NCBI GenBank assembly: GCA_951406725.2
Contig: OX597834.1
Location: 40,920,001 to 40,984,000, forward strand
DNA: 64,000 nt
Source: Octopus vulgaris
Taxonomy: Eukaryota
Direction of reading: 5' to 3'
Part shown: in pieces, positions 137 to 55,485 of the stretch
Position numbering within the stretch: position 1 is the first letter of the stretch
Layout: each line of letters starts with the position of its first letter
Translations under genes and position numbers: made by a program
The notes under the pieces: generated by a model
Databases searched by the model: none
Told to the model about the DNA's origin: nothing
What the model saw: only the letters and a program-made list of their open reading frames with translations

Positions 137-878
137 CTGCAAAGAGAAACAAAACAAAAATAAAATCATGTTATATAAAAACAGGAGCTGCTTAATTCGA
201 AATGACACACAGCCATCACTGTTGTCATGCTACCGTTATTACAGACGCACTGAATTACAGCCAACCATCATCACTCTTGGGGCAAGGAGGGCTTGGTAAC
301 ATGTATCATGCTTTTGCTAATTGCTTCAAATTTATCAGCATTGACCCAGTGAAATATCCAGGATGTGACAGGAGGAGGAGGAGGAGAGAGAGAAGAGAGA
401 GAGAGAGCTGCACCAGCATCCCACTGGTACTCATTACAGTTGAGTAGGCTGAATCACCATGCAAGCAAATGAAAGACAAACCTCTATCTACATAGAATGT
501 CGGTCTATAACAAACTACATTTCACATAAGGTACATGTTCCTACAAATAACTAGGTGTGAACTGAATCAATGTAGAATAAAATGTTCTATTCCAGAAACA
601 CAAAACACTTGCAGCAAACTTACGACACAACAGCAAGCAGTCCAATATCTTATATATATAAAGCTGAAGTTGTCTGTGTATGGCAGGCTTGGTAGCCTTC
701 AACTAACACTATCTCCTCCGAGACAGTGTTAGCTGGGATATGGTGCAAGAGAATCCAAATGAACACTTGTTAGCACCACAACATTATTTAATTATCAATA
801 TCACAAATTTAATGTATGTGTGTTGTTTAATGCTTATAGCTACAGAAGTCTCTTTAAAGATATATAGTGTTAGAAAAA

Positions 879-1303
879 CACAGATAGGGAACTTCAGGCC
901 CATAACTCTGCTAAACACAGAGTTAAAGATTTTGGCCAAGGTGCTAGCGAAAAGGTTGGCGTGGGTCATGGACAAACTTGTTGGGGAAGCGCAAATGTGT
1001 GCTATCCCGGGTAGGACGATCCACGAAAATCTCCACCTTATATGCTACTCCTTAGAGAGGGTGGGAAAGCTGTCTGGCGTAGTGGGGACACTGGTACATT
1101 TAGACCAGTCTAAGGCATTTGATAGGGTCGACCATCAGTACTTGGCGGCGGTGCTCGAGAAGGCTGGTCTGGGCCCGACCTTCCACGGTTGGATTGCTGC
1201 GTTGTACAGCGACATCGAGTCCATCGTAAAAGCAAATGGTTTCCTTTCGAAGCCATTCAGGATCGAGCGCTCAGTGCGTCAGGGGTGTCCCCTGTCCCTG
1301 CTT
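879..1303 (+). mobile_element. L1/Tx1-like LINE reverse-transcriptase fragment
   Basis: GC-richer block inside ORF 740..1339 with RT motifs NFRPITLLNTELKILAK, LDQSKAFDRVDH and VRQGCPLS; truncated at both ends. Confidence 0.85.
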
Positions 1304-1954
1304 TCAAGGCTAGGCAAAACGAAATTGTCTTGGAAGTGAAACAGAAAGAACAACAGATAATATTGCAGTTTTTGCCGCTTGTTGGTGCTGTGTGCTCACT
1401 CCACTCCCCAAACGCATCTGCAACGCCAACCAGAAGTATATATAACTAGTCTCTTTGACAAAATACAACAGTTACAAGTTTTTAACAAAACACATCCATT
1501 AAGTATGTAATGTTGATGAAGTTTACAATACAGAGTTGCTTCTAATGCAAAATTTGAATGTTCACATGCTGGTGCCATGCAAAAAGTACCCAGTACACCT
1601 TATAAAGTGGTTGGCATTAGGAAGGGCATCCAAGGGTAGAAACTATACCAAAATGGCCAGTTGGAGTCTGGTGCAGATCTCCAGCTTGCTGGCTTCTGTC
1701 AAAACATCCAACCCATCCATGCCAGCATGGAAAACAAATACTAAATTATTACATGATTATGATGATGATGATGGTGTAATAATTTTACAAGTAGCAGTCT
1801 AGCCACCCAACCACTGACATAACCATCACACAAACTTACCGCTTCTACCATAACCACAACCATTTCCCCCCACTGATACTACTACTAATAGTACTACCAC
1901 CACCACCACCACCACCAGACTAATATCAGCAACAAGGATGGAGAGGAGTCCTAC

Positions 1955-2028
1955 CTGTTTTGAATTTCTTCAATAAGGTCAACAGCTTCATTGTCACGCT
2001 TCACTTCATTTACATATAATGATAAATC
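1955..2028 (-). CDS. vav: Vav exon, DH C-terminus (DLSLYVNEVKRDNEAVDLIEEIQN+AG), phase 0 to 2
   Basis: tctctttcag|GATTTATCA...CAAAACAG|gtagga; 74 nt; VNEVKRDNE is the Vav DH-end signature. Confidence 0.96.
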
Positions 2029-3239: not shown

Positions 3240-3311
3240 CTGCATAGCTTCCAAAGCTATTTCTAGATTCTTCCGATCATCATCCGTTTTATCTGTTTGC
3301 TTAATTAATTC
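3240..3311 (-). CDS. vav: Vav DH exon (ELIKQTDKTDDDRKNLEIALEAMQ), phase 0 to 0
   Basis: tctctgcag|GAATTAATT...GCTATGCAG|gtcagt; 72 nt. Confidence 0.95.
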
Positions 3312-4114: not shown

Positions 4115-4210
4115 CTTCAGTAACAGATGATATTTGAGGACACGCTGCATCGGCACAGAGAGAAGGTCTCGGAGACGAAATTTTCCATCATTTGCTCTTG
4201 TCTGACACTC
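4115..4210 (-). CDS. vav: Vav DH exon ([32 protein letters not shown]), phase 0 to 0
   Basis: cttcaaag|GAGTGTCAG...CTGAAG|gtatac; 96 nt; near-identical to the Vav CR3 signature [18 protein letters not shown]. Confidence 0.97.
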
Positions 4211-6048: not shown

Positions 6049-6249
6049 TTCAATGGAATTTCTCACTAATTCACTACGCTTGCATGCTTCATCAATGAGG
6101 TCTTGTGCCTGGGGCAAGTTGGAACAAAAGTCCCCATAAATGAGAAATTTGGGTTTATGTTTAATGAACACCTCACTAATTTTAGGTACACCTTTCGAGC
6201 AGGCCTTCAAGAGTTCACTGTGAAAGGCCTGATGAACTTCCAAAAGAGG
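6049..6249 (-). CDS. vav: Vav DH exon (PLLEVHQAFH...FLIYGDFCSNLPQAQ...LVRNSIE), phase 0 to 0
   Basis: tccttattcag|CCTCTTTTG...ATTGAA|gtaagt; 201 nt; overlaps ORF 5926..6243; CR2 motif FLIYG.FCS. Confidence 0.95.
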
Positions 6250-6352: not shown

Positions 6353-6421
6353 TTCTATGTGCTTGAATATAATTTCTCGCTCTTGTGGAGGTAAAACATT
6401 TCGAAGAGGTTTACTAAAATG
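6353..6421 (-). CDS. vav: Vav DH exon (HFSKPLRNVLPPQEREIIFKHIE), phase 0 to 0
   Basis: tcttttcag|CATTTTAGT...CACATAGAA|gtaaga; 69 nt; HF.KPL...L...E..IIF..IE DH motif. Confidence 0.95.
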
Positions 6422-7790: not shown

Positions 7791-7889
7791 ATTCACAATC
7801 ATTAATAGGGCTTCAACATAATTTTTCTCTGTGTCAACCAACTCTTTGAGGCAGTGGTCCCGTTTTGTGGTTGGAGGTGGCATTCCCGT
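7791..7889 (-). CDS. vav: Vav exon, start of DH domain (TGMPPPTTKRDHCLKELVDTEKNYVEALLMIVN), phase 0 to 0
   Basis: cttacttacag|ACGGGAATG...ATTGTGAAT|gtaagt; 99 nt; DH CR1 motif KR..CL.E...TE..Y...L. Confidence 0.95.
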
Positions 7890-8749
7890 CTGTAAGTAAG
7901 CAGAAAGAAGCTATAAGACAGATTAACTATCGTAAAATGGCTACAATGCATTTCATAAATACCAATTTCATTTTACAGGGAATTTTATCATTATTATAAA
8001 TTATCATCATCTTCATCATCATCATCATCAAAGTCAGACTAAAATAAAATTTTAAAAAAAACAAATAAACATCTCAAATCATTTTTAAATGATATTAATA
8101 AGTTTGATAAAATTTTAGAAACTATTAACTATATCTTAAGGGATGAAAATGTTTTCATATTAATAATCAGCTTTATCTCTTGTCATTACTTGGTGTCTTA
8201 TTCTTGGAATATGTACATAGGAATTGATTTCCATTGGTTTCAACAATGAGCGTTCAGTTGTTTGATTAACTGAACTGCCAGGCTCATCGTATCAGTATCA
8301 GTAAGTAACTAAGCACTAACTACACAGACACATGTACCTTTGACATAATTCTAAGGCAGGATTTGTACAACAGGGTAACAAAACAAGATCCTTAAATTTC
8401 AGGTACAATCCATTCAACAGGCTCCCAAACAGCTTCTGTCCACCCATTTTCACTCATAAGGCTTGAATCAACCTGAGACTATGTTTAAATGACACTCTTA
8501 CCCCACGATGCCACACTTTAGAGAATGTGTTAGGGGTTGAAATGTAGATGAAGGGAGAAGTTGACAGGGCAGAGCCCCCTCGTGGACAGGCAAGTACATT
8601 GGATAATATAATGCTAGATACACTACGACTGGATGGTAAGGTAAATGAATTTCTGTCAGTTTCAGTAATGAGTAGTGAATAATTTGATCAACTGGACTAC
8701 CTGCTCAGTGAATTAGAATATGTGTGCCTTCAGTGTAATTCACACATGG

Positions 8750-11314: not shown

Positions 11315-12753
11315 TAATAACAAGCCCTCATATTGGGTGGTATAGAGGTGGACGAAGTCAATTAAATCAATTCCAGTACTTTGTCAAACCCAGATGGGTG
11401 AAAAGCAAAAAGTTGACCTCAACAAAATTTAAACTCAGAACATGAAGACCCAGAAGAAATACTGCAAAATATTTTGCTTGATGCTCTAACATTTTTGGCA
11501 ATCTATGAGAAAAGGGTAGTCATAAAAATAATAATAATTCTAATTTTGACACAACGCCAGCAATTTTTATGGAAAGGGATTAGTCAATTTCGTTGCCTTC
11601 AGTGTTCGACTTGTACTTATTTTATTGATCTCGAAAGGATCAAAGTTGATCTTGGTAGAACCTGGACTCAGAGTGTAAAGAGCCAAAGGAAATGCTGCTA
11701 AGCACATTGTCCAATGCACTACCAATTCTGCCAGCTCACTGCTATTATTATGCCCTGATGCAGTACCAGGCAGTAGCTCTTGTGGCCTTCTGATCTTAAT
11801 TGATTGGAAGTGTTATCATGTACATTGTTTTGTCTTGGTATAAAAGATGGTCTGCAGCAAATATTCTGCTCAATACCACAGATTTGCTTGTCAGTTGTTT
11901 GACCTTAACCAGTTGACCATGTCCCTTAGTGGCTGACAATATGTGCACCTCTTGGGAACAGTAAGAGGGTTCTGAGCACTTGATGGACTTAATGGAACCA
12001 TAGGGATATCTAAGGGAACAGGTAGTAACCACCCACATAAATTCTACCAGAAATAAGATCAAGAAGAAGAAAATAATAATAATAATAATCCTTTTTACTA
12101 TAGGCACAAGGCCTGAAATTTGGTGGGAGGAGACTACTCAATTATATCGACGTCAGTGCAGAACTGGTACTTGTTACATCGACCTCGAAAGAATGAAAGG
12201 CAATGTCAACCTCCGTGAAATTTGAACTCAGAATATAAGGACAGACAAAATGCTGCTAAGCATTTTGCCCAGTGTGCTAACAATTCTGCCAGCTCACCAC
12301 CTTAATGATGATGATGATGATGATGATGATGATAATAACAATAATAATAATAGTTTCAATTTTAGAATTACATCAACCCCAGTGTTGAACTGGTACCTAT
12401 TTCATTGACCCTGGATGGATTAAAGGCAAAGTCAACCTCAGCAGAATTTGAACTCAGAACATAAATAATTATAATCATAACTTGGGTGCAACTTAGCAAC
12501 TCACATAAACTAAAGCAAAACCAAAACATAATAATAATAATAATCCTTTCTACTATAGGCACAAGGCCTGAAATTTTGGGGGAGGGAGTCAGTCGATTAG
12601 ATCAACTCCAGTACACAACCAGTACTTAATTTACTGATCCCAAAAGAATGAAAAGCAAAGAAAACCTCAGCAGAATTTGAATTCAGGACATCAATTATAA
12701 TCGAGAGTTGGGTGGAACTTAGCAACTCACATAAATTAAAGCAAAGCCAAAAC

Positions 12754-12793
<40 letters not shown>

Positions 12794-13282
12794 TAATACC
12801 AGCAATTTTGAGAAAGGTCTAATTGATTAGACTGACGGCAGCAGTTAACTGATGCTTTATCATGAGAACTTTAATACGGATGAAAAACAAAATCCAAAAC
12901 AATCAAACAGCATTATTTAAAAGATTTTAACAGGAAGAAAGCTGCAGACCAAGTAGTACCGAATTATAAATGCTGAAATTATTAGTCTAAATTTTTAGCC
13001 ATTGTAACCCCACCCCCACCCACTCAGTTCTAGAATTAATATGAAAGAAGAGGAAGAGAGGAATGAATCTAACATTTGTAGACAAAGCGGTTTAGAAGTT
13101 CAATCGCAATACTCGGGGAGCATACATATGGAAAATATTACTTTAGTTGCTACGTTCAATTGTTATTTATTCCCAGGTCATTCCTGCGTGTGCAGACAGA
13201 GATACAAAAGTGTTCCAACCATGACCATCCAGTCATTTTTTTCTCTTTCTATATATATATTTTTTTCTATATCTAAGCACAG

Positions 13283-13669
13283 ACATGACTGTGTGGTTAA
13301 GAAGAAGCTTGCTTCCCAAATCAAGTGGTCCCACTGACCAGTACCTTGAGCAAGTGTCATCTACTACAGCCCGAAGCTGATCAAAGACTTGTAAGTGGAT
13401 TTGGTCGATGTTAAACTGAAAGAAGCCCGTCATGGGTATGTGTGTGTGGATGTATGTATATACCCACGTCTGAATATTGCATGATGGTTGTAAAAGGGTA
13501 TCATTATCATATGAGGTTGTTTGTTTCCAGTCTTCCAAGAGAAAATACTTAGATATGAGAAACAGGTGAGGGTTGGCAACAGGAAGGGCATCCAGCCATA
13601 GAAAATCTACCTCCACAAAGTCCATCTGACCCATGCAAACATGGAAAAGTAGAAGTAAAATGATGATGA
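13283..13669 (+). mobile_element. Degenerate tRNA-SINE with family-A head and a (GAT)n tail
   Basis: Head similar to family A; 3' GGAAGGGCATCCAGCC...CCATGC..CATGGAAAAG...TGATGATGA. Confidence 0.65.
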
Positions 13670-14682
13670 CCCAGGCTTACATTGTACAATATTATTTGTT
13701 CCAATTTTTTTTTAAGACACAGGGTGCGATTCAAGATAGATTTAGCCAGTTGAATGACTATACAGAGGCCCTTTTCTTGGCTCCCTAATTTATCTTTTAT
13801 CAGCTAAGGAATTTCTCAAGAAACTTAATATCTGAAAATAGGTTCCTGCCAACATAACAACAACAATGTGACTACATTGTACTGGCCTCTTTAAAAATAA
13901 AGGACATATTGAAAAATATGCTCTGAAATAAATTGTCTCAGAATAAAACGTGAGATCATGATAGGAATATCTTGGGTTACAAGTCTACAGAGTCAAGGTT
14001 GATTTAAAGCTAAATAACTAATTATTTCTTTAAGGCAGAATTGTTAGCATGCCAGGCAAAATGCTTCGCAGCATTTCATCCATTTTTACGTCCTGAGTTC
14101 AGATTCTGCTGAGGTTGACTTTGCCTTTCATCCTTTCAGGGTCGATAAAATAAGTACCAGTTGAGTACTGGGGTCGATGTAATTGACTTACCTGCCTCAC
14201 CTGAAAATAATGGCCCAGTGCCCAAATTTGTAAGCAATATTAGTTGACATCCTAAAAATAGCACTGAAATCCTGCCTCATATCACACTATACTGTTTTAA
14301 AAAGATGGGGGCATATTGGATAAAGTAACCTGGAAAGTCAAAGATGGTCATGGTTGGAAGATCGTTGATTATAGACCTATAAAATTAAGCCAGACCTGGA
14401 TCTAAACAACAACAACTGATCATCATCATCATCGTCCTTAAAAGTTTGCAATATGGTCTTATCAACATATTTCTGTCATTTCACCTGAAAGGGGCAACAT
14501 GCTCACATTTGACCCCCTAATTTCTTCTCCATTTTCACAACTATCTTGCAGCACCAACCAACCAACCAACCAGCCAGCCAGCTCATGGCAGTTATCATCC
14601 ATCCACATCCATGGATGATAACTACAGCTATACCTCTGACATAAATCAGTTGATACCTTTAATACTCAATCATTCTCTCATT

Positions 14683-15066
14683 GTGGAGGCACAATGGCCC
14701 AGTGGTTAGGGCAGCGGACTCGCGGTCATAGGATCGTGGTTTCGATTCCCAGACCGAGCGTAATGAGTGTTTATTGAGCAAAAAACACCTAAAGCTCCAC
14801 GTGGCTCCGGCAGGGGTTGGTGGCGAACCCTGCTGTACTCTTTCACCACGACTTTCTCTCACTCTTTCTTGTGTTTCTGTTGTGCCAGTAATTCAAAGGG
14901 CCAGCCCTGTCACACTCTGTGTCACGCTGAATATCCCCCGAGAACTACGTTAAGGGTACACATGTCTGTGGAGTGTTCAGCCGCTTGCATGTTAATTTCA
15001 CGAGCAGGCTGTTCCGTTGATCGGATCAACCGGAACCCTCGTCGTCGTAAGCGATGGAATGCTAAC
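14683..15066 (+). mobile_element. tRNA(Arg)-like SINE, family C
   Basis: Head GGAGGCACAATGGCCCAGTGGTTAGGGCAGCGGACTCGCGGTCATAGGATCGTGGTTTCGATTCCC with A/B boxes and a TCG anticodon-like loop, followed by a ~300-bp CpG-rich body; no tRNA acceptor-stem closure. Confidence 0.7.
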
Positions 15067-15879
15067 AAGACATTCTCTCACTACACCAATGCTCTTGTAA
15101 TAATGTCAACTTTAGCATCAGTTTTATGAAATGTTCGCTCATTATTGAGGGAATTCAATATGAGGAATTAGAATTGGTTTAGATATAGAGGTCGATAATC
15201 TAGGCCATGATTTAATCAAGATCTGTTATTAAACCAGCAACAATGTTAAAGTTGAGAGATCTTGGTAAAAAAAATTTTTTTAAATAACAACGCTACTAAA
15301 ATATTGGCATAAGACCAGAAAGATCGGAGGGAGCGGGGTTAGGTAGCTTTCATTAATCTTAGTGCTCAACTGGTCCTTATTTTATCAACCCCCAAAAGGG
15401 GTGAAAAGCAAAGTCAAATCTTAGCAGAATTTGGACTCAGAATGTAAAGACAAATGAAACACTGCAAAGCATTTTGACCAACACACTAACGAGTCTACCA
15501 GTTCGCTACCTTAACAACACTAATCAGCAACAGTTTGATTTAGTCTGGAGAAGTGGCTGCAAGGTTGATGGCATAGTCAGATCGGTCAGGTAAGGTGGGA
15601 GGGCAGGTGGCAAACAATAGATCTGAGATATACATTAACAAAAAAAAAAAAAAATTTTTTTAATAGAATAAAACAAATAACAAACAATAAGGAAACCATA
15701 CAATTTCTTGTTTAACACCAAGCAGAACATGCTTACTAAGAAAAGGAAGTGATCGGTAACACTGGTGAGGGACATGAATGTGAATGAATACATGCAAACC
15801 ACGACATATTGACTGTTTCCAGGATGAGACAACATCAGCTTTGATGTTCTACCATATTATTTAAGAGAGGGAGGGATAA

Positions 15880-15920
<41 letters not shown>

Positions 15921-16249
15921 CTAACAGTAAAAACTGCCATGAATATAAATCCACAAAGGGGATTGTATTTAGTAGTTCAACCTACTAAATACACAGCAAC
16001 TAAATCTCCCTCAAATTGCACACCATCGTTATAAAAATAAGTAATGTATACATTGGATAAAGCACACCTCTAAAAACAAGACAAGGTTGATCACAAATCC
16101 TCGATCAGGACTGACCTGGGGCTACACAACAATCTCATCGATAAAAAAAACTACCGTTCACCGAAAAATGTGTATGATGTAAAATGTCCTGGGCTGCCTA
16201 CAGTGTCTTGGCTTAGGAGATGAGATGATCCTTTCAATGTTATATCTGT

Positions 16250-16478
16250 TTCTTTATTGCCCACGAGGGGCTAAACATAGAGGGGACAAACAAGGACAGA
16301 CAAACGGATTAAGTCGATTACATCGACCCCAGTGCGTATCTGGTACTTAATTTATCGACCCCAAAAGGATGAAAGGCAAAGTCGACCTCGGTGGAATTTG
16401 AACTCAGAATGCAACGGCAGACGCAATACCGCTAAGCATTTCGCCCGGCGTACTAACGTCTCTGCCAGCTCACCGCCT
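16250..16478 (-). mobile_element. SINE family B (GGCGGTGAGCTGGCAG head; GTCGACTTTGCCTTTCATCC central domain)
   Basis: Best-preserved copy. Degenerate copies at about 11540-11740, 12090-12303, 14030-14240, 15300-15512, 22100-22325 and 62360-62710. Confidence 0.75.
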
Positions 16479-16781
16479 TGTTCAATGTTATATCTGTTTA
16501 TCATCCTCTGTGGACCCACTGAGGTAAACTGAATGAGAGAGCAAAGTACAAGTTCCAGCTTCACTTGACCTATTTCAACAGTTTGGTCTGATTTACAGTT
16601 CCAATGGCACCATGCTATACATACATACATACATGTGGTTGGCGTTAGGAAGGGCATCCAGCTGTAGAAACTTTGCCCGATCAAGATTGGAGCCTGGTGC
16701 GGCCGTCTGGTTCGCCAGCCCTCAGTCAAAATCATCCAGCCCATGCTAGCATGGAAAGCGGACGTTAAACGACGATGATGA

Positions 16782-16816
<35 letters not shown>

Positions 16817-17238
16817 TAACACAACGTTTATATGTAAAACCAAGCTGTATATGATACAGTGTATTGTGTCACATCTGTGTGACACCATGGTTAAAAACTA
16901 CCATGTCATATGTAACACCATCCAATATGTAAAACCATAAAGTTTGTGACACCATGTTACGTGTCATACTGTGCCATGTGACACAAGTCATTATGCTGTA
17001 ATGTGACACAGTGTTGCAGGAGGCATTCTGCCGTGAGACCGAGTCCCTTTTGCCACCATATTGCTAGAGACAATGCATTTGTTATATGTGACATTGTACT
17101 ACATGTGATGGTTAAATTTAATATAGTTTTAAAAGGGTGTAGATTGGGGTGGGGCGAGGGACCAGCAGCTGCCTGAGGGGGGTGGGACATGGGGTGGGGG
17201 TAATGTGAGAGAAGGAAATCTTTTCTGTGCTGACTTAC

Positions 17239-17347
17239 TGTGGAGAATCTTTGATGTCGAATACACAAGTGTTCATAAATCTGTTCATCTTCCTCGCCGT
17301 CGTACACAACATCATATAAATCCTGGTTATCATCCAAGTCATTCTCA
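17239..17347 (-). CDS. vav: Vav acidic-region exon 5b (ENDLDDNQDLYDVVYDGEEDEQIYEHLCIRHQRFST), phase 2 to 0
   Basis: gttgttgtatatag|TGAGAATGAC...TTCTCCACA|gtaagt; 109 nt; DLYD (Y160-like) and QIYEHL (Y174-like) motifs. Confidence 0.88.
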
Positions 17348-18750
17348 CTATATACAACAACAACGACAACAACAAAGCTTATATGGATTACAACAACTAA
17401 CAACAAACAAACAAACACCTACTATCAAAACAACAGCAGCAACAACAACAAAAAAAAACAGCAAAAAATAAAAAATATAAAATTAGAAATCAAGAATACA
17501 AAATAAAATAAAAATAAAATAAAATGAAAAGACAACATTGATCAAACAAAATAAAACAAAAAAAATTATCAAAATAAAAATTAAAACTAAAAAACAGTAA
17601 ATAAAAAGAAAAAAATAATGAAATGAAAAATATAAAAAAAACTGCAAACAAATCACTGGAAAGGAATTTCTTTAAAAAAAAGAGGGAAAAAATATAATTA
17701 AAAAATAAGAGGGGGAGGAAGAACAGATGTGGTGCAAGGTGGTGGTGGTGGTGGTAACATCAGACTGAGGTGAAGGGCAAGACTGGAAAGGAAGGGTGAA
17801 CATATTAATTCTATGTATAGTAGCAGAAAGGTTTGTGGACGATGGTCAGATTGTGGTAGTGGTGGTAGGAGGAGGAGAAGAAGGAGGCTGAAGACAAAAA
17901 CTTGTGATAAATTACGAAAACAACAAGTGTAAAAACAAAAAATAAAAGACAAAATAAAACAACATAAAAAACTAATGAGAAATTGTATAGTTGTTGTTGT
18001 TGTTATAGTTTATTCTCCCCCCATCCATACACACACACACTACCACCTTCCCCTCTGCCCAGTCCTGTCCCAACCCAACAGACGTATGAAGGTGATCGTA
18101 ATGGTGTTGGTGGCACGACTGTCTTTAATTATGGTGTTGTTGTTGTTTACTCTCAAGTTCTTCAAACTGCAAGTAGACCTACAATCAAAGGCGTTCCAGC
18201 CACGACAATCCCATAGTTTATCTTTTTTTCTTTTTTTATGATTTTTTTTTTACGGCTCAATCAAAAGAGAAAAGCAATCCTTCATCTCAATGTTCAAAAA
18301 ACATCTAAGACTGTGGGAGTTGAGAGACTTGATTCACATATTTGCACCAGAACAGACAGACATGGCTAAAGGCACAGGAACGCCAAGTGGTTGTGTTAAA
18401 CTGTATGACAGAATTAGAACTGCCACCAAATTTAAGACTACAACATCCAATGTGTGTTTCTTTTTCTAAGACAATAATGCAATTTAAGGGAGATTTGGCT
18501 GATATATATCTCGCAACCCAAAAGATTGTGAAGATGTTCCTTCTATGACTTGAAATTACCATGAACAGGCTGTCGTCCCATTTGCTTCTGTGGTGATGGT
18601 GATTATATTGTTAAAGATCAATGTCAATGATGCAGGCATAGAAATGACAGAGCTTTATTATAAGAAATAACATAAGAATGGTTAATTGCCATTTGTGAAC
18701 AAATTGACAGGATGGCGGCAAGAATTTGTCAAAAAAATGAACTTCTAGAA

Positions 18751-18969
18751 CAGTGCTTTTCAACATTTTTGCTGGAGCGGAACCCCAAGAAAACATTCCA
18801 CTGGCTCGAGGAACCCCTGTGCAATAATTTAATAGTCTTATGCACACATATCTGCACAGGAGAAATAAAAATTACTGCCGATTTTAGCAGTTTTGTAACT
18901 TCTTGCGGAACCCCTGGACTGTACTGGCGGAACCCTAAAGTTTTGCGGAACCCTGGTTGAAAACCACTG
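18751..18969. mobile_element. hAT/Charlie-type MITE
   Basis: TIRs CAGTGCTTTTCAAC / GTTGAAAACCACTG with a perfect 8-bp TSD TTCTAGAA at 18743-18750 and 18970-18977. Confidence 0.9.
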
Positions 18970-20414
18970 TTCTAGAATATAGCATGAGTTTCTAAATCCA
19001 ATCACTTGTTTGAATTTTGTATGCATGTGTGTGTGTATGTGTGTGTGTGCATGTTTTAGCATTAAAATTACATGGCAGTTTCCGTGATGATAAGAGATGA
19101 AATTTAAGACATTTATGCATTATCAGAGCTATTATTTCTATGGTTGAATAACCGTGTTCGTCACTCAACAACAAAGTAAATATGGAACCCGTTCTCAGCC
19201 TGGCAAGGTAATTTGCCTTGAACAGTGGCACATCAGACATTTAGAAGCAACTCTGATATCTGAATACTTCCTTTTCATCTCTAGTATATCATCTATCCAG
19301 GCACAAGTCAGGTATCATACATATACAAACTACACTCACAGAACATAAATCAGTGAGTGAATCTCTATGCAGTTACCCAACCTGCAAGAAATTGCAGCCA
19401 AATCTCTCTTATATTACACCCTATAATCTTAAATAAAGAATGTAACACTTAATAACGTAGCCTCACATATATACAAGGAGACAAGATTGTCAAAGCTGAA
19501 ATGTCTTTTGAGTGTAGCTCAAACCAGGCTGAGTTGAAGCTAAGCAGCAATAGACACGGTACAAATTGTTTGTATTTCAGAGTAATCTATTTACTGAGAG
19601 GAATGCTGGACCACTTCAGAGACATCTTGATCACAGGTACTGACAGGTAGTGTCAATTATGACACATGAGCTGCATACTACACAACCTGCTAACTTAGAG
19701 ACCTTGATCACCAATGGTCTTTACAACAGAAATCCCAAATGAGGTAGTCCCAGATATGCTACACTGCCCAATGCACTGAGCAGAAGCTAAATATAAACTA
19801 TGTCATATTGGAAAATGTAGTGTGAGGTAAGCAGAGGTGAATATTCCTGTCACACTGGATAATGTAGTCTGAAGTATTGCAGAGGTGAATAAAAGACAGG
19901 TAGCAATACCTTTTATTATCAGGACTAACCTGAAGCTAAACAAAAGCAAGTATAGTGGAATAGCCATTATTAATTCATAGAAAGTTTATCAACAAGAATT
20001 TTGTCAGTGGTACCAACTAAACTACAGTAGATGTCCAATATTATCATCATCAATTTTACGCCTGCTTTTTCCATGCTGGCATGGGTTGGTCAAGAGTCAT
20101 TCCACATCCAGATGTCCTTCCTGTTACCAGTTCTTGTTTCTCAGGTTAATATATTCCACTTATCTACACACACGCTAAAACCATCCCCCAAGATAACTGC
20201 TAAGCTACAGGACATATTGTTTACAAGGGACCTAAGCACTCACACTGTGTTTATTCATACAGCGACAATGTGAAAGCAAGAAAATAGTTACACACACACA
20301 TACATACGTACACACACACACACACACACACATACATAGGTACACACACACACACATGATGGCTTCTGTACTATATTTGTGTACCAAATTCCACTCACAT
20401 GGAATTGGTTGCAC

Positions 20415-20706
20415 CAGTGCTACTCAAACTGGTGGTTCACAGACCAATGCCAGTCTGCGAGCCATCAGCCACCGGTACGTGGCGAGTTTCCAGAAAAGAA
20501 AGAAACATTATAAAATGCTTATGTAATATTGTATTATTTGTTTGCAAAATAGATATAAGATAAAAAAGATTGTCGACTTTTATTATATTCAGTATATATA
20601 TTGTTTCCTGTATAAATTAATATTTCTAAGAAATATTACCGATCCTTGGCACACTGAGAAAAAAAAAACTGCCGGTATGCCACATCAGATGGGTTGAGAA
20701 GCACTG
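20415..20706. mobile_element. hAT-type MITE nested in an old minus-strand SINE
   Basis: TIRs CAGTGCTACTCAA / TTGAGAAGCACTG; imperfect 8-bp TSD GGTTGCAC/GGTGACAC; SINE-like sequence continues on both sides. Confidence 0.7.
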
Positions 20707-23184
20707 GGTGACACCATACTTGCTAAAAGTGCAAACCAATGGGATGGAATCCAAAATTACAGAATTACAAAGTGAACTCGTTAACCAAACAACCATGCTC
20801 ATGTCTAAAATAACCAGAATAATATATTTGAACCCTTAACATACTGCACTGGTGGTGTATACGTATCTTTCTTATCTATTATCTGGTGGAGGAGGGTGGG
20901 GTGGAATTACACAGAGGAAGAACTGTAGCCACAAACTATGCAGGACCTCTACTGGGTTGTGAGAATGGGGTGATGTGAATCCATCTCTTCATCGTACATG
21001 GCTGAATAGAGATGGCAATGGATTGAGTTGCTCTCCCAACTTTCTTTTCTCTCTCTCTCTCTCTCACACACACAGAGACAGATTCTATGGTGTCAATCAC
21101 AACTCGACTATGACTGTTGTTATGTCATATCTGTTGTAAACATAACAGTATCCTCTGTATGGATAGATGTCTTGCCCCAAATCTTTGTACAGATCCTCAA
21201 ATTCTGGAACTGAAGCCCTGTGGTTGCAAAACAAGCTTCTTAACTACACATCTATTCTACTATTGATGACTTCCATCATCTGCTTTTGATCTGAGTTGTT
21301 ACATATTTTCATAACCTTCATTTCCAAAGTGCTTCACATTTCTGAGGAGAAAGAAGCCATCCCTTAAACTGAGCCAGCAGCTATAAATAGGAACACAAGA
21401 ACAGTGAACAGGAAACTATTTAGAGTGAAAAAAGCAAATAATTGGATTCATAATTCTGAAAATTTGAATTACTACAAACACGACAAAGTACTTAAGACAT
21501 TTCAGCAAATTAGAAACATAATGCCTATATTTATAAAAATTCTTTAGTTGGGAGAATTGGAACAATAACTGAATTCAAATTAGATTTGGGAAATACTGAG
21601 GAATTTGTATAATACAGAACTTAGAACATATTGCATGTGTTTTGTTTGTTTCTGGGATGTTTTAGAGTGAAACAAATGAGACCATAGCTAATATGAGACA
21701 TTTGGAATGAGGAGACGTGGGTGATAATGCCATAAAGTAAGAAGCAGAAAATGAATTACATTTCATTGTTATGGGGACAATGCTGAAAGGAAATGTGTAA
21801 CATTTGGGGACCCAAGTTTTTCATCAGAGAAGATACAACAGATTGCCAAGTCTAATGAAAAGCTCATCTACTCACACCAGTCTAAAATACCACCCTTTTT
21901 TACCTTTTCTTTCCTTGGGCCTTGATCTCCTTAAATTACATTTTATTATATAGAGTAGAGCACTAATACAGAGAAGGGTGTATATCACTGAACTTGGGGG
22001 GGGGGGTAAATCATTTATTAGAAATCACTACTCTGAGTTTGTTGCTTCTCTTTTTTTTTTTCTATAAGGGACATTTTAGCTCCCAGTTAACAGTTCTTTC
22101 TAGTATATGCACAAGGCTGGGAATTTGGGGAAAGGGCACTAAACGATTACATCAACTCAAGTGCTCAACTAGCATTTTATTTTATTTTATTTTATTTTAT
22201 CAACCCTGAAAGGATGAAACACAAAGTAAACCACAACAGCATTTGAACTGTGAATGCAGAGAACTGGAAGAAATACTGCTGAGCTTTTTGTCCGGTGCCG
22301 TAATGATTCTGCCAGCTCACCATCTTTGTTTTTTTTTTCCTTTTCTTCTTTTCTTTAATATAACTACATTTTGGTATTGAGTACTTCCTCATTCACACTT
22401 AAGTATACATGTATGTATACACACACACACACAAGATATATTAAAGATAAGAGAGTATGACCAAGGGTTTACAGACAGATGGAATGTTACTAGATATTAT
22501 CATTGAGAGAGAGAGAGAGAGAGAAAAAGGGAGAGATTATCCATATATTATCAGAATTGATACCTTTTATAAAAAGAATGAAATGAAAATATTCTGAAAA
22601 TATCTTATATATTTAAAAAAGGGGGAAAAAAGGCAATATTTGTATATCACATAAAATCATTCTAGATAAAGATAAATCATGGGGAAAGTCAGTTATCAGA
22701 ATAAGTACACTGTTAAAAACACATGCTACATTATTTAAGCAGAACATTATTTTGTTTGTTTTATGTAAGAGAGATTTTTTTTTTCCTGATAAATCCATTT
22801 TCTTGTTAACTCATTCTATCCTACCTGTATTAAAGTTTAGCAACATGATTGGGTACAAGTAACACCACAGACAAGTTGGAAGCTACTTAGACATTTTCAG
22901 TAAGAAGTTAAAATTCAATTAGAAAGAGAACAAAAAAAAAATCAACACATTCCACCCCCACCCCCACTTAGAAAATTACAAAAAAAAAAAAAAAGAAAAG
23001 AAAAGAAAATACTAAATTTCAATGAAATAACATTACATTTGAAAATATTCATATTTGGAAGAAAAATGAATTAACATTTCTTCCAAAATAATATAAATTC
23101 TTCTAAGATTAAGAAAAATAACATAAAGGAAAATTAAATTAAATGAGAAAGGGGCTATAGAAGAGTATGTATATAAAGATATGC

Positions 23185-23217
<33 letters not shown>

Positions 23218-23276
23218 TACGCACACACATATTGGTGTGAGCTTATGCGTATGTATTTGCATATACATATATATAT

Positions 23277-23325
<49 letters not shown>

Positions 23326-23525
23326 CACATTTGTACATAGAAAGCAAGAAATATTAAATATTTGTTTAAACAAAGAAAAGAAAAAAAGAAAGACAACTGA
23401 ATTAATAATAAACATGCTTCAAGGCCCAAAAAAAACAATGAAAAACAAAAAAAAAACACTTCAGTGACTGACTGATTTGGCACAACAATTATTATTTCCT
23501 TTTTTTGTTTGTTTTTTTTTTTTAC

Positions 23526-23628
23526 CTGTGAAGTGGATTTGCGTTTAAGCGAGCACAAATCCTCATATATCTGCTGATTATCATCTTGTGTTTCTTTGTT
23601 ATACACTTCATGGTCATCTGGTAAGTCA
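23526..23628 (-). CDS. vav: Vav acidic-region exon 5a (DLPDDHEVYNKETQDDNQQIYEDLCSLKRKSTSQ), phase 2 to 0
   Basis: ggctttttccag|TGACTTACCA...ACTTCACAG|gtaaaa; 103 nt; IYEDL is the Y174-type autoinhibitory motif. Confidence 0.85.
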
Positions 23629-34991: not shown

Positions 34992-35069
34992 AATGCCATC
35001 TCTTTGAGGTTACTGTAAATGTCTTCATCCTCATCGTATTCTTGGGTTTCTACGAAGGGTGGAAACTCG
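34992..35069 (-). CDS. vav: Vav acidic-region exon 4b (EFPPFVETQEYDEDEDIYSNLKEMA), phase 2 to 2; carries the Y142-equivalent DEDIY motif
   Basis: ttgctttctag|CGAGTTTCCA...ATGGCATT|gtaagt; 78 nt; resembles Vav1 PFPTEEESVGDEDIYSGL (recalled). Confidence 0.9.
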
Positions 35070-44752: not shown

Positions 44753-45762
44753 CACTTAGTAACTGTAAGCTATGAGCGTCTAAGAAAGATAGTGCAGTGC
44801 TCATAGGGCTCACAATCCTTCCTCTTTCCCCTACAGTATCTATGGGAGAAGACAAATGCAGTGCCCAATTAGGATTCCGGTCCCTCACCTTCCATATGAC
44901 TAAAGAGATTGATATGATAAATTAATTATTGTCCAGCTTGAATTTCTCCGAGGGTTGACCTGATTAAATATAAACAAACCATGCGCTTATTTCAGAATAG
45001 AAATATAGAAGTAATAAATATAAAACTTGTTGTTCTTGCAATTGTCTTATTGTTGTTGTACCTGATAGTCTACCTGTGTTTATTACTGGAAAATGCCATT
45101 TCAACCGTGAAAGTTTAGTTCTGAGTTAACATGTAATTTATGCACATGCTTGCTTGTATTATGCACATACACAAATGCACCAAAAGACAAGATTAGTATA
45201 ATAACAAGGTTTATATATATATATAAGAGCATACATGCAAACAAACCCACATATATACACATATACCTACAAGAGTTAGTAGTGATTAGTCTTTCAGCAA
45301 TTAATAATACAGATTTTGTGACAACTTCCTTTTTTGCTCTGCTGTGCTCTGCCACTGAACATTTGCACACATGATGTGATGTTGATGTCACCAGCTCCTC
45401 CAATACACAGCTAATACTACTGCTACTAACACTACTACTACTACTGCTACTACTACTGTTAGCAAATGCAAAAAAAAAAACACAAAAATAAACTTTAAAA
45501 AAAAAATTATAAAATGATGAAAACAACAGACAGCAGAAGGGTAGGCGAGAGACACAAATTAAGGATAAACGAACGAACGGATAGACGGACGGACGGACGG
45601 ACGGATGGACGGAAGGACGGCTGGACGGATGGATGGATGGATGGATGGACTGGTGGTTTGGGAGGAGGATTGAGGATGGGTGACATTGATCCTTGAACCC
45701 ATAAAAGTGAGTGTATGATTATTGAGCAGGCTTGGGTGACAAGGACTGCATCAAGCACTTAC

Positions 45763-45837
45763 GTTGCAAGATCCTCCAATGTGTTGTAATAATCATGTTC
45801 AATAGTGAGAGGTCTCGTATCAGGAGGAGAGAACCCT
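45763..45837 (-). CDS. vav: Vav acidic-region exon 4a (GFSPPDTRPLTIEHDYYNTLEDLA), phase 2 to 2; paralogue of 34992-35069
   Basis: ctctcctttttctcaattgtag|AGGGTTCTCT...CTTGCAAC|gtaagt; 75 nt, open in the phase-2 frame left by the CH exon; F-x-P...D-x-Y-x-x-L-x-[DE]-x-A pattern shared with exon 4b. Confidence 0.8.
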
Positions 45838-55429: not shown

Positions 55430-55485
55430 CTGGCAGTCTTTTGAGCTAGTTCTGTTTTAGAAAGTTTCGACAATGTGTACAAAAC
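55430..55485 (-). CDS. vav: Vav GEF exon, end of calponin-homology domain (VLYTLSKLSKTELAQKTA+AG), phase 0 to 2
   Basis: Minus strand reads ttttctcctatccag|GTTTTGTACACA...ACTGCCAG|gtatgc; 56 nt. Translation resembles the last CH helix of Vav1 (VIYTLSALSWTPIAQ, recalled). Confidence 0.9.

What the first reader, a model, noticed from the sequence alone, without database searches (positions are those of the whole stretch)
17239..23628. Obligately mutually exclusive paralogous exons encoding Vav's Y160/Y174 autoinhibitory segment
Seen: exons 5a (23526-23628; DLPDDHEVYNKETQDDNQQIYEDLCSLKRKSTSQ) and 5b (17239-17347; ENDLDDNQDLYDVVYDGEEDEQIYEHLCIRHQRFST) align motif for motif (DL.D...Y....D..QIYE.LC..[KR]..S). 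Both have phase 2 to 0 boundaries and intact GT-AG sites. Splicing 5a to 5b gives CAG|TGA, an immediate stop, and skipping both shifts the frame, so exactly one must be used. Established: this segment carries the tyrosines (Vav1 Y160/Y174) whose helix blocks the DH active site and is released by Src/Syk-family phosphorylation. Inference: one invertebrate vav gene makes isoforms with different phospho-switches (5b more acidic with three Tyr, 5a with two and fewer acidic residues), enforced by frame/NMD. This could parallel by splicing what vertebrates achieved with Vav1/2/3 paralogues. I do not recall this being described.
Basis: partly seen in the sequence, partly recalled or inferred. Interest (0 to 1): 0.88.

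Follow-up and report, generated by a model that had tools for sequence, protein, structure and literature searches.

The report
Swappable off-switch exons in octopus Vav
The single octopus vav signalling gene carries two ancient, both-expressed copies of the exon for its phosphotyrosine-controlled off-switch and uses one per transcript, as clams and arthropods also do, which likely lets splicing tune how easily the protein is switched on.

Summary
Observation confirmed. Exons 5a (23526-23628) and 5b (17239-17347) of the single octopus vav gene are paralogous, share phases, and give a premature stop if joined or both skipped. Both appear as spliced units in contigs of presumed RNA runs from three organisms; a unitig simulation fits two runs only without a joined 5a-5b form. 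All 26 of 26 cephalopod Vav proteins covering the region use exactly one. Not supported: that it parallels Vav1/2/3 (all three are 5b-like), and that frame/NMD is the selector (the commonest backstop of such exons). A functional difference is inferred, untested; AlphaFold models did not separate the forms. The isoforms are already in public gene models; ten literature searches found no description; this scan noted the same pair earlier in another, insect-like genome. A real, old, apparently undescribed member of a known kind.

The parts
55430..55485 (-). vav exon 3, end of the CH domain (56 nt, ends phase 2)
   Evidence: CH exons 1-2 lie upstream of the window
45763..45837 (-). exon 4a, 75 nt, phase 2-2; one of two paralogous exons for the Y142-equivalent segment; not exclusive with 4b
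   Evidence: (4a/4b z = 3.95); loose end of a 5a contig in run X9 equals the end of 4a
34992..35069 (-). exon 4b, 78 nt, phase 2-2; aligns to the Vav1 Y142 segment
23695..23701 (-). perfect TACTAAC branch-point-like heptamer about 70 nt upstream of the 5a acceptor
   Evidence: function inferred
23526..23628 (-). exon 5a, 103 nt, phase 2-0; divergent, less acidic copy; Tyr at -12 and the Y174 equivalent (IYEDL)
17239..17347 (-). exon 5b, 109 nt, phase 2-0; canonical acidic copy (LYD motif = Y160, Tyr at -9, Y174 equivalent IYEHL); weak TAG acceptor after a (TTG)n tract
7890..7910 (-). 21-nt in-frame extension from an alternative acceptor of exon 6 (adds 7 residues between the inhibitory helix and the DH domain)
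   Evidence: (7 of 26 proteins)
7791..7889 (-). exon 6, start of the DH domain, phase 0-0
6353..6421 (-). exon 7, DH domain
6049..6249 (-). exon 8, DH domain
4115..4210 (-). exon 9, DH domain
3240..3311 (-). exon 10, DH domain
1955..2028 (-). exon 11, end of DH domain

Best explanation
Exons 5a and 5b are an old tandem duplication in the single octopus vav gene, spliced one per transcript, each supplying the Y174-type helix, and they likely give Vav two differently tuned autoinhibitory segments. Shown: both are spliced between exon 4a or 4b and exon 6, never together in 26 protein models, and both are conserved across cephalopods. From established Vav biology: the Y174 helix blocks the DH pocket and Y142/Y160 plus acidic residues hold the CH-Ac unit on DH-PH. 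Inferred: 5b keeps the full ancestral clamp, while 5a keeps the helix but weakens or rewires the Y160/acidic half, so 5a isoforms would have a different phosphorylation threshold or kinase/SH2 preference. Inferred: regulated splice-site choice selects the exon (introns of 6-11 kb rule out steric exclusion), with frameshift and NMD removing errors. With 4a, 4b or both, and two exon-6 acceptors, up to 12 acidic-region variants are possible.
For: Frame arithmetic and paralogy. Contigs ending exactly at exon boundaries in runs X1, X2, X9 of three organisms and three studies; simulated k=31 unitigs match X1 exactly (129, 57, 57, 109) and X2 within 1 nt only without a 5a-5b path. 26 of 26 cephalopod proteins use one exon, 10 with 5a and 16 with 5b. 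5a 29/34 and 5b 29/36 identical between octopus and a decapodiform, against 742/855 for the whole protein. Twelve same-gene isoform pairs (octopus, 5 bivalves, 6 arthropods) differ at this segment and are identical over the next 200 residues. Y174 equivalent invariant in 74 of 74 aligned Vavs; Y160 equivalent absent from the divergent form in 5 of 6 bivalve genera and 7 of 7 arthropods examined. Both AlphaFold models place a helix over the Y174 equivalent. Roles of Y142/Y160/Y174: PMC4601183 and PMC8591544 passages.
Against: No activity, phosphorylation or tissue data. Octopus 5a itself still has a Tyr at -12 and keeps Vav1's YEDL motif whereas 5b has YEHL, so the direction of any effect in octopus is open. 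The AlphaFold models do not separate the forms: the Y160 half is below pLDDT 50 in both, and the helix block scored higher for 5a (74) than 5b (52). The runs are only guessed to be RNA and are contigs, which drop rare forms, so a rare joined transcript is not excluded. No second form was seen among listed models of 5 gastropod genera or a chiton, so the pair may be dispensable. Vertebrate paralogues show no a/b split.
Confidence: 0.62

Rival explanations
1. A real mutually exclusive pair whose two products are nearly equivalent for GEF autoinhibition; the difference lies in adaptor function (which kinase or SH2 protein engages the phosphotyrosines) or is kept for regulatory reasons only.
For: The core IYE.LC helix is kept in both; both models give the same fold; octopus 5a keeps an upstream Tyr; PMC5740500 argues such exons modulate rather than alter function (passage).
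Against: Each copy is separately conserved with its own signature across cephalopods and bivalves, and the divergent copy repeatedly loses the Y160 equivalent and acidic residues, which point at the clamp.
Confidence: 0.3
2. The pair also serves as an on/off or truncation device: transcripts with both or neither exon are degraded (regulated NMD) or are translated from the ATG in exon 6 into a Vav lacking CH-Ac, which would be constitutively active.
For: Both mis-spliced forms hit a stop before or in exon 6; exon 6 has an in-frame ATG at its third codon and one O. bimaculoides model starts there (P0007); Vav1 delta 1-189 is used as a constitutively active control (PMC8591544 passage).
Against: No joined path is needed or fits in X1 and X2; the other two O. 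bimaculoides models listed also start late (P0013, P0017), which points to incomplete annotation.
Confidence: 0.06
3. One exon is a dead or rarely used duplicate.
For: Run X21 holds 5a while the index finds next to none of the 5b-region words.
Against: Both exons are in the same runs X1, X2, X9 and both are over 80% conserved across cephalopod orders.
Confidence: 0.02

Closest known systems
Tandem-duplicated (homologous) mutually exclusive exons, as catalogued for human in PMC5740500
   Same: Neighbouring paralogous exons, same phases, similar length, bridging junctions for each, frameshift on joint inclusion (60% of human clusters have lengths not divisible by three).
   Different: Here the exons encode a mostly disordered phospho-regulatory linker with one helix rather than part of a folded domain, and sit next to a second, non-exclusive duplicated exon. 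No VAV gene was found in that paper's held supplements.
Autoinhibited Vav1 acidic region (PDB 3KY9, 6NF1, 1F5X)
   Same: Same domain order and the same three tyrosine positions: Y142 in exon 4b, Y160 and Y174 in exon 5.
   Different: Vertebrate Vav1/2/3 each showed one, 5b-like version of the segment in the records retrieved; here one gene encodes alternatives.
Annotated Vav isoform pairs of bivalves (Crassostrea, Mizuhopecten, Pecten, Mytilus, Mercenaria) in NCBI gene models
   Same: Same segment swapped; divergent forms group with octopus 5a at 88/98 support.
   Different: Most bivalve divergent forms lack the Y160 equivalent, octopus 5a keeps a Tyr at -12; an independent cephalopod duplication is not rejected (p-AU 0.19).
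Annotated Vav isoform pairs of arthropods (ticks, spiders, horseshoe crab, barnacle; earlier scan note e1-7593968 for insects)
   Same: Same segment swapped within one gene; one acidic form with upstream Tyr and one without; the divergent form lies upstream in two read-through gene predictions, as 5a does here.
   Different: The arthropod divergent form has its own signature (basic residues, extra Tyr at +5); common origin with mollusc 5a is neither shown nor rejected (p-AU 0.44).

Membership tests
Homologous mutually exclusive exon cluster | Neighbouring exons are sequence paralogues | tested here: met
   10 identities, z = 5.2, p about 0.0002
Homologous mutually exclusive exon cluster | Same reading frame, compatible splice sites, similar length | tested here: met
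   103 and 109 nt, phase 2-0, AG/GT
Homologous mutually exclusive exon cluster | Junctions from each exon bridging the other | tested here: met
   4a-5a read directly as a loose end; 4x-5b, 5a-6 and 5b-6 deduced from contig lengths by simulation and present in gene models
Homologous mutually exclusive exon cluster | No productive joint inclusion | tested here: met
   Joined form stops at once; 0 of 26 proteins hold both; joined path does not fit X1 or X2; rare joined transcripts cannot be seen in contigs
Homologous mutually exclusive exon cluster | Exclusion by steric hindrance or docking/selector RNA pairing | tested here: inconclusive
   Steric: excluded, intron 6178 nt. Pairing: 2 of 8 flank pairs beat shuffles, both microsatellite-driven; only about 450 nt of each flank, one species
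Homologous mutually exclusive exon cluster | Tissue- or stage-regulated choice | tested here: inconclusive
   X21 holds 5a in an unbranched 1469-nt contig and next to no 5b words, X1/X2/X9 hold both; tissues are not given and contigs cannot rank levels
Homologous mutually exclusive exon cluster (applied to 4a/4b) | No productive joint inclusion | tested here: not met
   Both lengths divisible by three; 6 of 26 cephalopod models hold both: duplicated cassette exons, not an exclusive pair
Vav family RhoGEF | CH-Ac-DH-PH-C1-SH3-SH2-SH3 architecture | tested here: met
   Pfam scan of P0002; window exons identical to named Octopus Vav records
Vav family RhoGEF | Y142/Y160/Y174 equivalents in the acidic region | tested here: met
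   Alignments to 6NF1/3KY9; Y174 invariant 74 of 74
Vav family RhoGEF | Y174 helix occludes the DH site and is released by phosphorylation | not testable with these tools
   Helix predicted in both models; docking and release not measured
Splicing equivalent of Vav1/2/3 paralogue divergence | Vertebrate paralogues split into 5a-like and 5b-like segments | tested here: not met
   VAV1, VAV2, VAV3 representatives all keep the [LI]YD motif and net charge -11 to -15

The most novel reading that the evidence does not exclude
The exon-5 swap is a single, protostome-ancestral switch kept from octopus to ticks and insects: a tissue-regulated exon choice makes a Vav that keeps the Y174 helix but drops the Y160/acidic clamp, so splicing sets the activation threshold of the only Vav; molluscs and brachiopods add a second duplicated Y142 exon, making the whole off-switch combinatorial.
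Probability: 0.25. Interest if true: 0.75.

Novelty: new member of a known kind. Interest (0 to 1): 0.5.

Why it matters
Vav autoinhibition is a textbook multi-site phospho-switch, and a 2014 review says nothing is known about the signalling specificity of Vav splice isoforms (PMC4601183, passage). Here nature offers conserved alternative versions of exactly that switch, including forms without Y160, in the only vav gene of molluscs and arthropods. They are ready-made reagents to test what Y142, Y160 and the acidic residues contribute, positions that are hit by human lymphoma mutations (PMC8591544, passage), and they mean invertebrate vav genetics should be read per isoform. The splicing mechanism itself is ordinary.

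Tried and rejected
Third copy of exon 5 in the window: none. Second vav gene: none, the only other hit had E 0.003 and a stop. Docking/selector RNA pairing: the two strong duplexes are (TA)n/(TG)n microsatellites. First read-laying over 16 kb was swamped by repeats; its joints table showed only repeat joints and X4 showed only intronic pieces. The loose ends at the 3' side of 5a were dropped by the tool's repeat filter, so the 5a-6 letters were not read directly. No holder is on record as RNA; kinds are guesses. Trees on 35-36 columns cannot date the duplication: independent cephalopod (p-AU 0.19) and bivalve (0.087) origins are not rejected, nor is a mollusc-arthropod link (0.44) or an arthropod-only origin (0.29). 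AlphaFold models did not discriminate the isoforms. No complex prediction was obtained, so no verdict on peptide-DH binding. dN/dS was not possible: no orthologous DNA was held. No dipteran Vav was retrieved, so Drosophila is unchecked. Literature: 10 searches gave no description; supplements of PMC7954323 (6 files), PMC5740500 (10 files, possibly cut) and PMC3923563 (1 file) hold no vav entry. The Drosophila mutually exclusive exome paper (Hatje and Kollmar 2013) and Yu et al. 2010 were not held and could bear on novelty and on contact residues.

Full report
1. Observation. Both exons are present on the minus strand at the stated coordinates with AG/GT ends: 5a is 103 nt and 5b 109 nt, both read in the same frame, phase 2 to 0. 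Joining 5a to 5b gives CAG TGA; skipping both gives a stop inside exon 6; either alone is open. The peptides share 10 identities (z = 5.2 against 5000 shuffles), and a profile built from 43 exon-5 peptides finds only these two copies in the window. The introns around them are 11363, 6178 and 9349 nt.

2. The gene. A DH exon of the window is 100% identical to named Octopus vulgaris and O. sinensis Vav proteins; the gene is single-copy in the window's genome. Exons 3 to 11 map in the window, exons 1-2 upstream. The full proteins have the Vav domain order and align to autoinhibited human Vav1, placing Y142 in exon 4b and Y160/Y174 in exon 5. I also found a second paralogous pair, 4a and 4b (z = 3.95), both in-frame cassettes, and an alternative exon-6 acceptor.

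3. Use in transcripts. Of 28 cephalopod proteins held (only 15 of 29 members of the largest cluster were listed), 26 cover the region; 10 use 5a, 16 use 5b, none both, none neither; 6 carry both 4a and 4b (my notebook entry says 5, the recount is 6). These are public gene models and assembled transcripts; I did not see the evidence under each. In contigs of runs guessed to be RNA, 5b is a piece laid exactly on 17239-17347 in X1, X2 and X9, not listed for X4 (table cut); 5a ends exactly at 23628 in X1, X2 and X9, with two upstream partners in X1 and X2 and a loose end equal to exon 4a in X9. Simulated k=31 unitigs reproduce X1 exactly (129, 57, 57 and 109 nt) with 4a-5a, 4b-5a, 4a-5b, 4b-5b and the long exon-6 acceptor, and X2 to within 1 nt; adding a joined 5a-5b path breaks the fit (103 nt); my X9-like set fitted 5b but not the long 5a contig. 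X21 holds 5a in a 1469-nt contig running unbranched downstream while the index finds next to none of the 5b-region words, a weak hint of sample-specific choice. Contigs drop rare forms and give no levels.

4. Conservation. Octopus versus a decapodiform: 5a 29/34, 5b 29/36, 4a 23/24, 4b 19/25, whole protein 742/855. Twelve same-gene isoform pairs swap a 32-45 residue segment here: octopus, five bivalves and six arthropods. In a mollusc-plus-outgroup tree the eight divergent forms are one group (88/98, not starred), but independent cephalopod duplication is not rejected (p-AU 0.19); in the wider tree that group is not recovered and the arthropod link is unresolved. The Y174 equivalent is invariant in 74 of 74 aligned proteins. 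The divergent form lacks a Tyr at the Y160 position in 5 of 6 bivalve genera and 7 of 7 arthropods examined, but octopus, the decapodiform and Crassostrea keep one. Only one form was seen among listed models of Haliotis (14), Littorina (8), Patella (7), Gigantopelta (8), Biomphalaria (6), a chiton (4), Lingula (6), Asterias (7) and Ptychodera (13); absence from models is not absence from genomes. Of 365 proteins with a DH start, 2 hold two Y174 motifs, both chelicerate predictions with intron-like text between, divergent form first.

5. Mechanism. Shown: one exon per productive transcript, both expressed and conserved. Established (PMC4601183 and PMC8591544, passages only): the Y174 helix sits in the DH GTPase-binding surface, Y142 and Y160 with the CH domain stabilise the closed state, and phosphorylation opens it. 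Inferred: 5b is the ancestral full clamp; 5a keeps the helix and alters the Y160/acidic half (net charge -5 versus -10), so threshold or kinase/SH2 preference likely differs. AlphaFold models of 4b+5a and 4b+5b both put a helix over the Y174 equivalent (170-180 and 173-184) and leave the Y160 half below pLDDT 50; they do not separate the forms; the 5a model's best structural matches are inhibited Vav1 entries, expected from homology. Exon choice is likely made by splicing regulators: steric exclusion is impossible at 6 kb, no credible RNA pairing was found, 5a has a perfect branch-point heptamer and 5b a weak acceptor. The frameshift is a backstop.

6. All three vertebrate paralogues are 5b-like, so the pair does not mirror Vav1/2/3. 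Frame-incompatible exclusive exons are the majority type (377 clusters, 60%, in human; joining reads in 22% of them; PMC5740500 passage). 5a, not 5b, keeps Vav1's YEDL.

7. Novelty. The isoforms are in NCBI/UniRef gene models of many species. Ten full-text searches found no paper describing the pair (listed under Tried and rejected). A 2019 evolutionary review of Vav has no occurrence of 'splic', 'isoform' or 'exon' (PMC6562523, term counts and passages); a 2014 review says only that splicing yields isoforms in all species and that their specificity is unknown; a 2008 proteomics paper mentions an unannotated Drosophila vav variant without detail (PMC2614494, passage). PMC3342872 and PMC5499878 (passages) add nothing on vav exons. 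The Drosophila exclusive-exome paper was not held, and subscription papers are not searched, so prior mention is possible. This scan noted the same kind of pair in another, insect-like genome (e1-7593968); I had the arthropod pairs before reading it and did not check its insect accessions.

8. Verdict. Real, expressed, old and apparently undescribed; an ordinary splicing mechanism acting on an unusually informative element. New member of a known kind, interest 0.5; the bold reading (one protostome-wide, tissue-regulated threshold switch) has probability 0.25 and would deserve 0.75.

Noticed in passing
window 45763-45837 and 34992-35069: Second duplicated exon pair (4a/4b) for the Y142 segment, usable singly or together; both types also appear in models of bivalves, gastropods, a chiton and the brachiopod Lingula, so it is probably older than molluscs.
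   Followed up: partly
window 7890-7910: Alternative exon-6 acceptor adds 7 residues between the inhibitory helix and the DH domain; a scallop model has a similar short insert at this place.
   Followed up: partly
outside the window, downstream part of vav (proteins P0001, P0016, P0017, P0025 versus the others): A third swapped segment between the first SH3 and the SH2 domain, with both versions in Octopus and in Sepia; exon structure not mapped.
   Followed up: no
protein P0007 (starts at the ATG in exon 6, window about 7883): An O. bimaculoides model begins just before the DH domain, which would lack CH-Ac; probably incomplete annotation. Several spider, tick and mite models also start after the CH domain.
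   Followed up: no
proteins P0174 (Owenia) and P0175 (Tubulanus): An annelid and a nemertean also show a second version of the Y174 segment, in short or partial models.
   Followed up: no
window 17348-17450 and 16939-17238; 45463-45762: 5b has a weak acceptor after a (TTG)n tract; 12 and 14 YCAY motifs lie in the 300 nt downstream of 5b and 4a; no chance control was run.
   Followed up: no
window 707-1336 (+): Open frame resembling a reverse-transcriptase fragment of a LINE-type element (label recalled, not searched); high-copy repeats fill 11400-16800.
   Followed up: no
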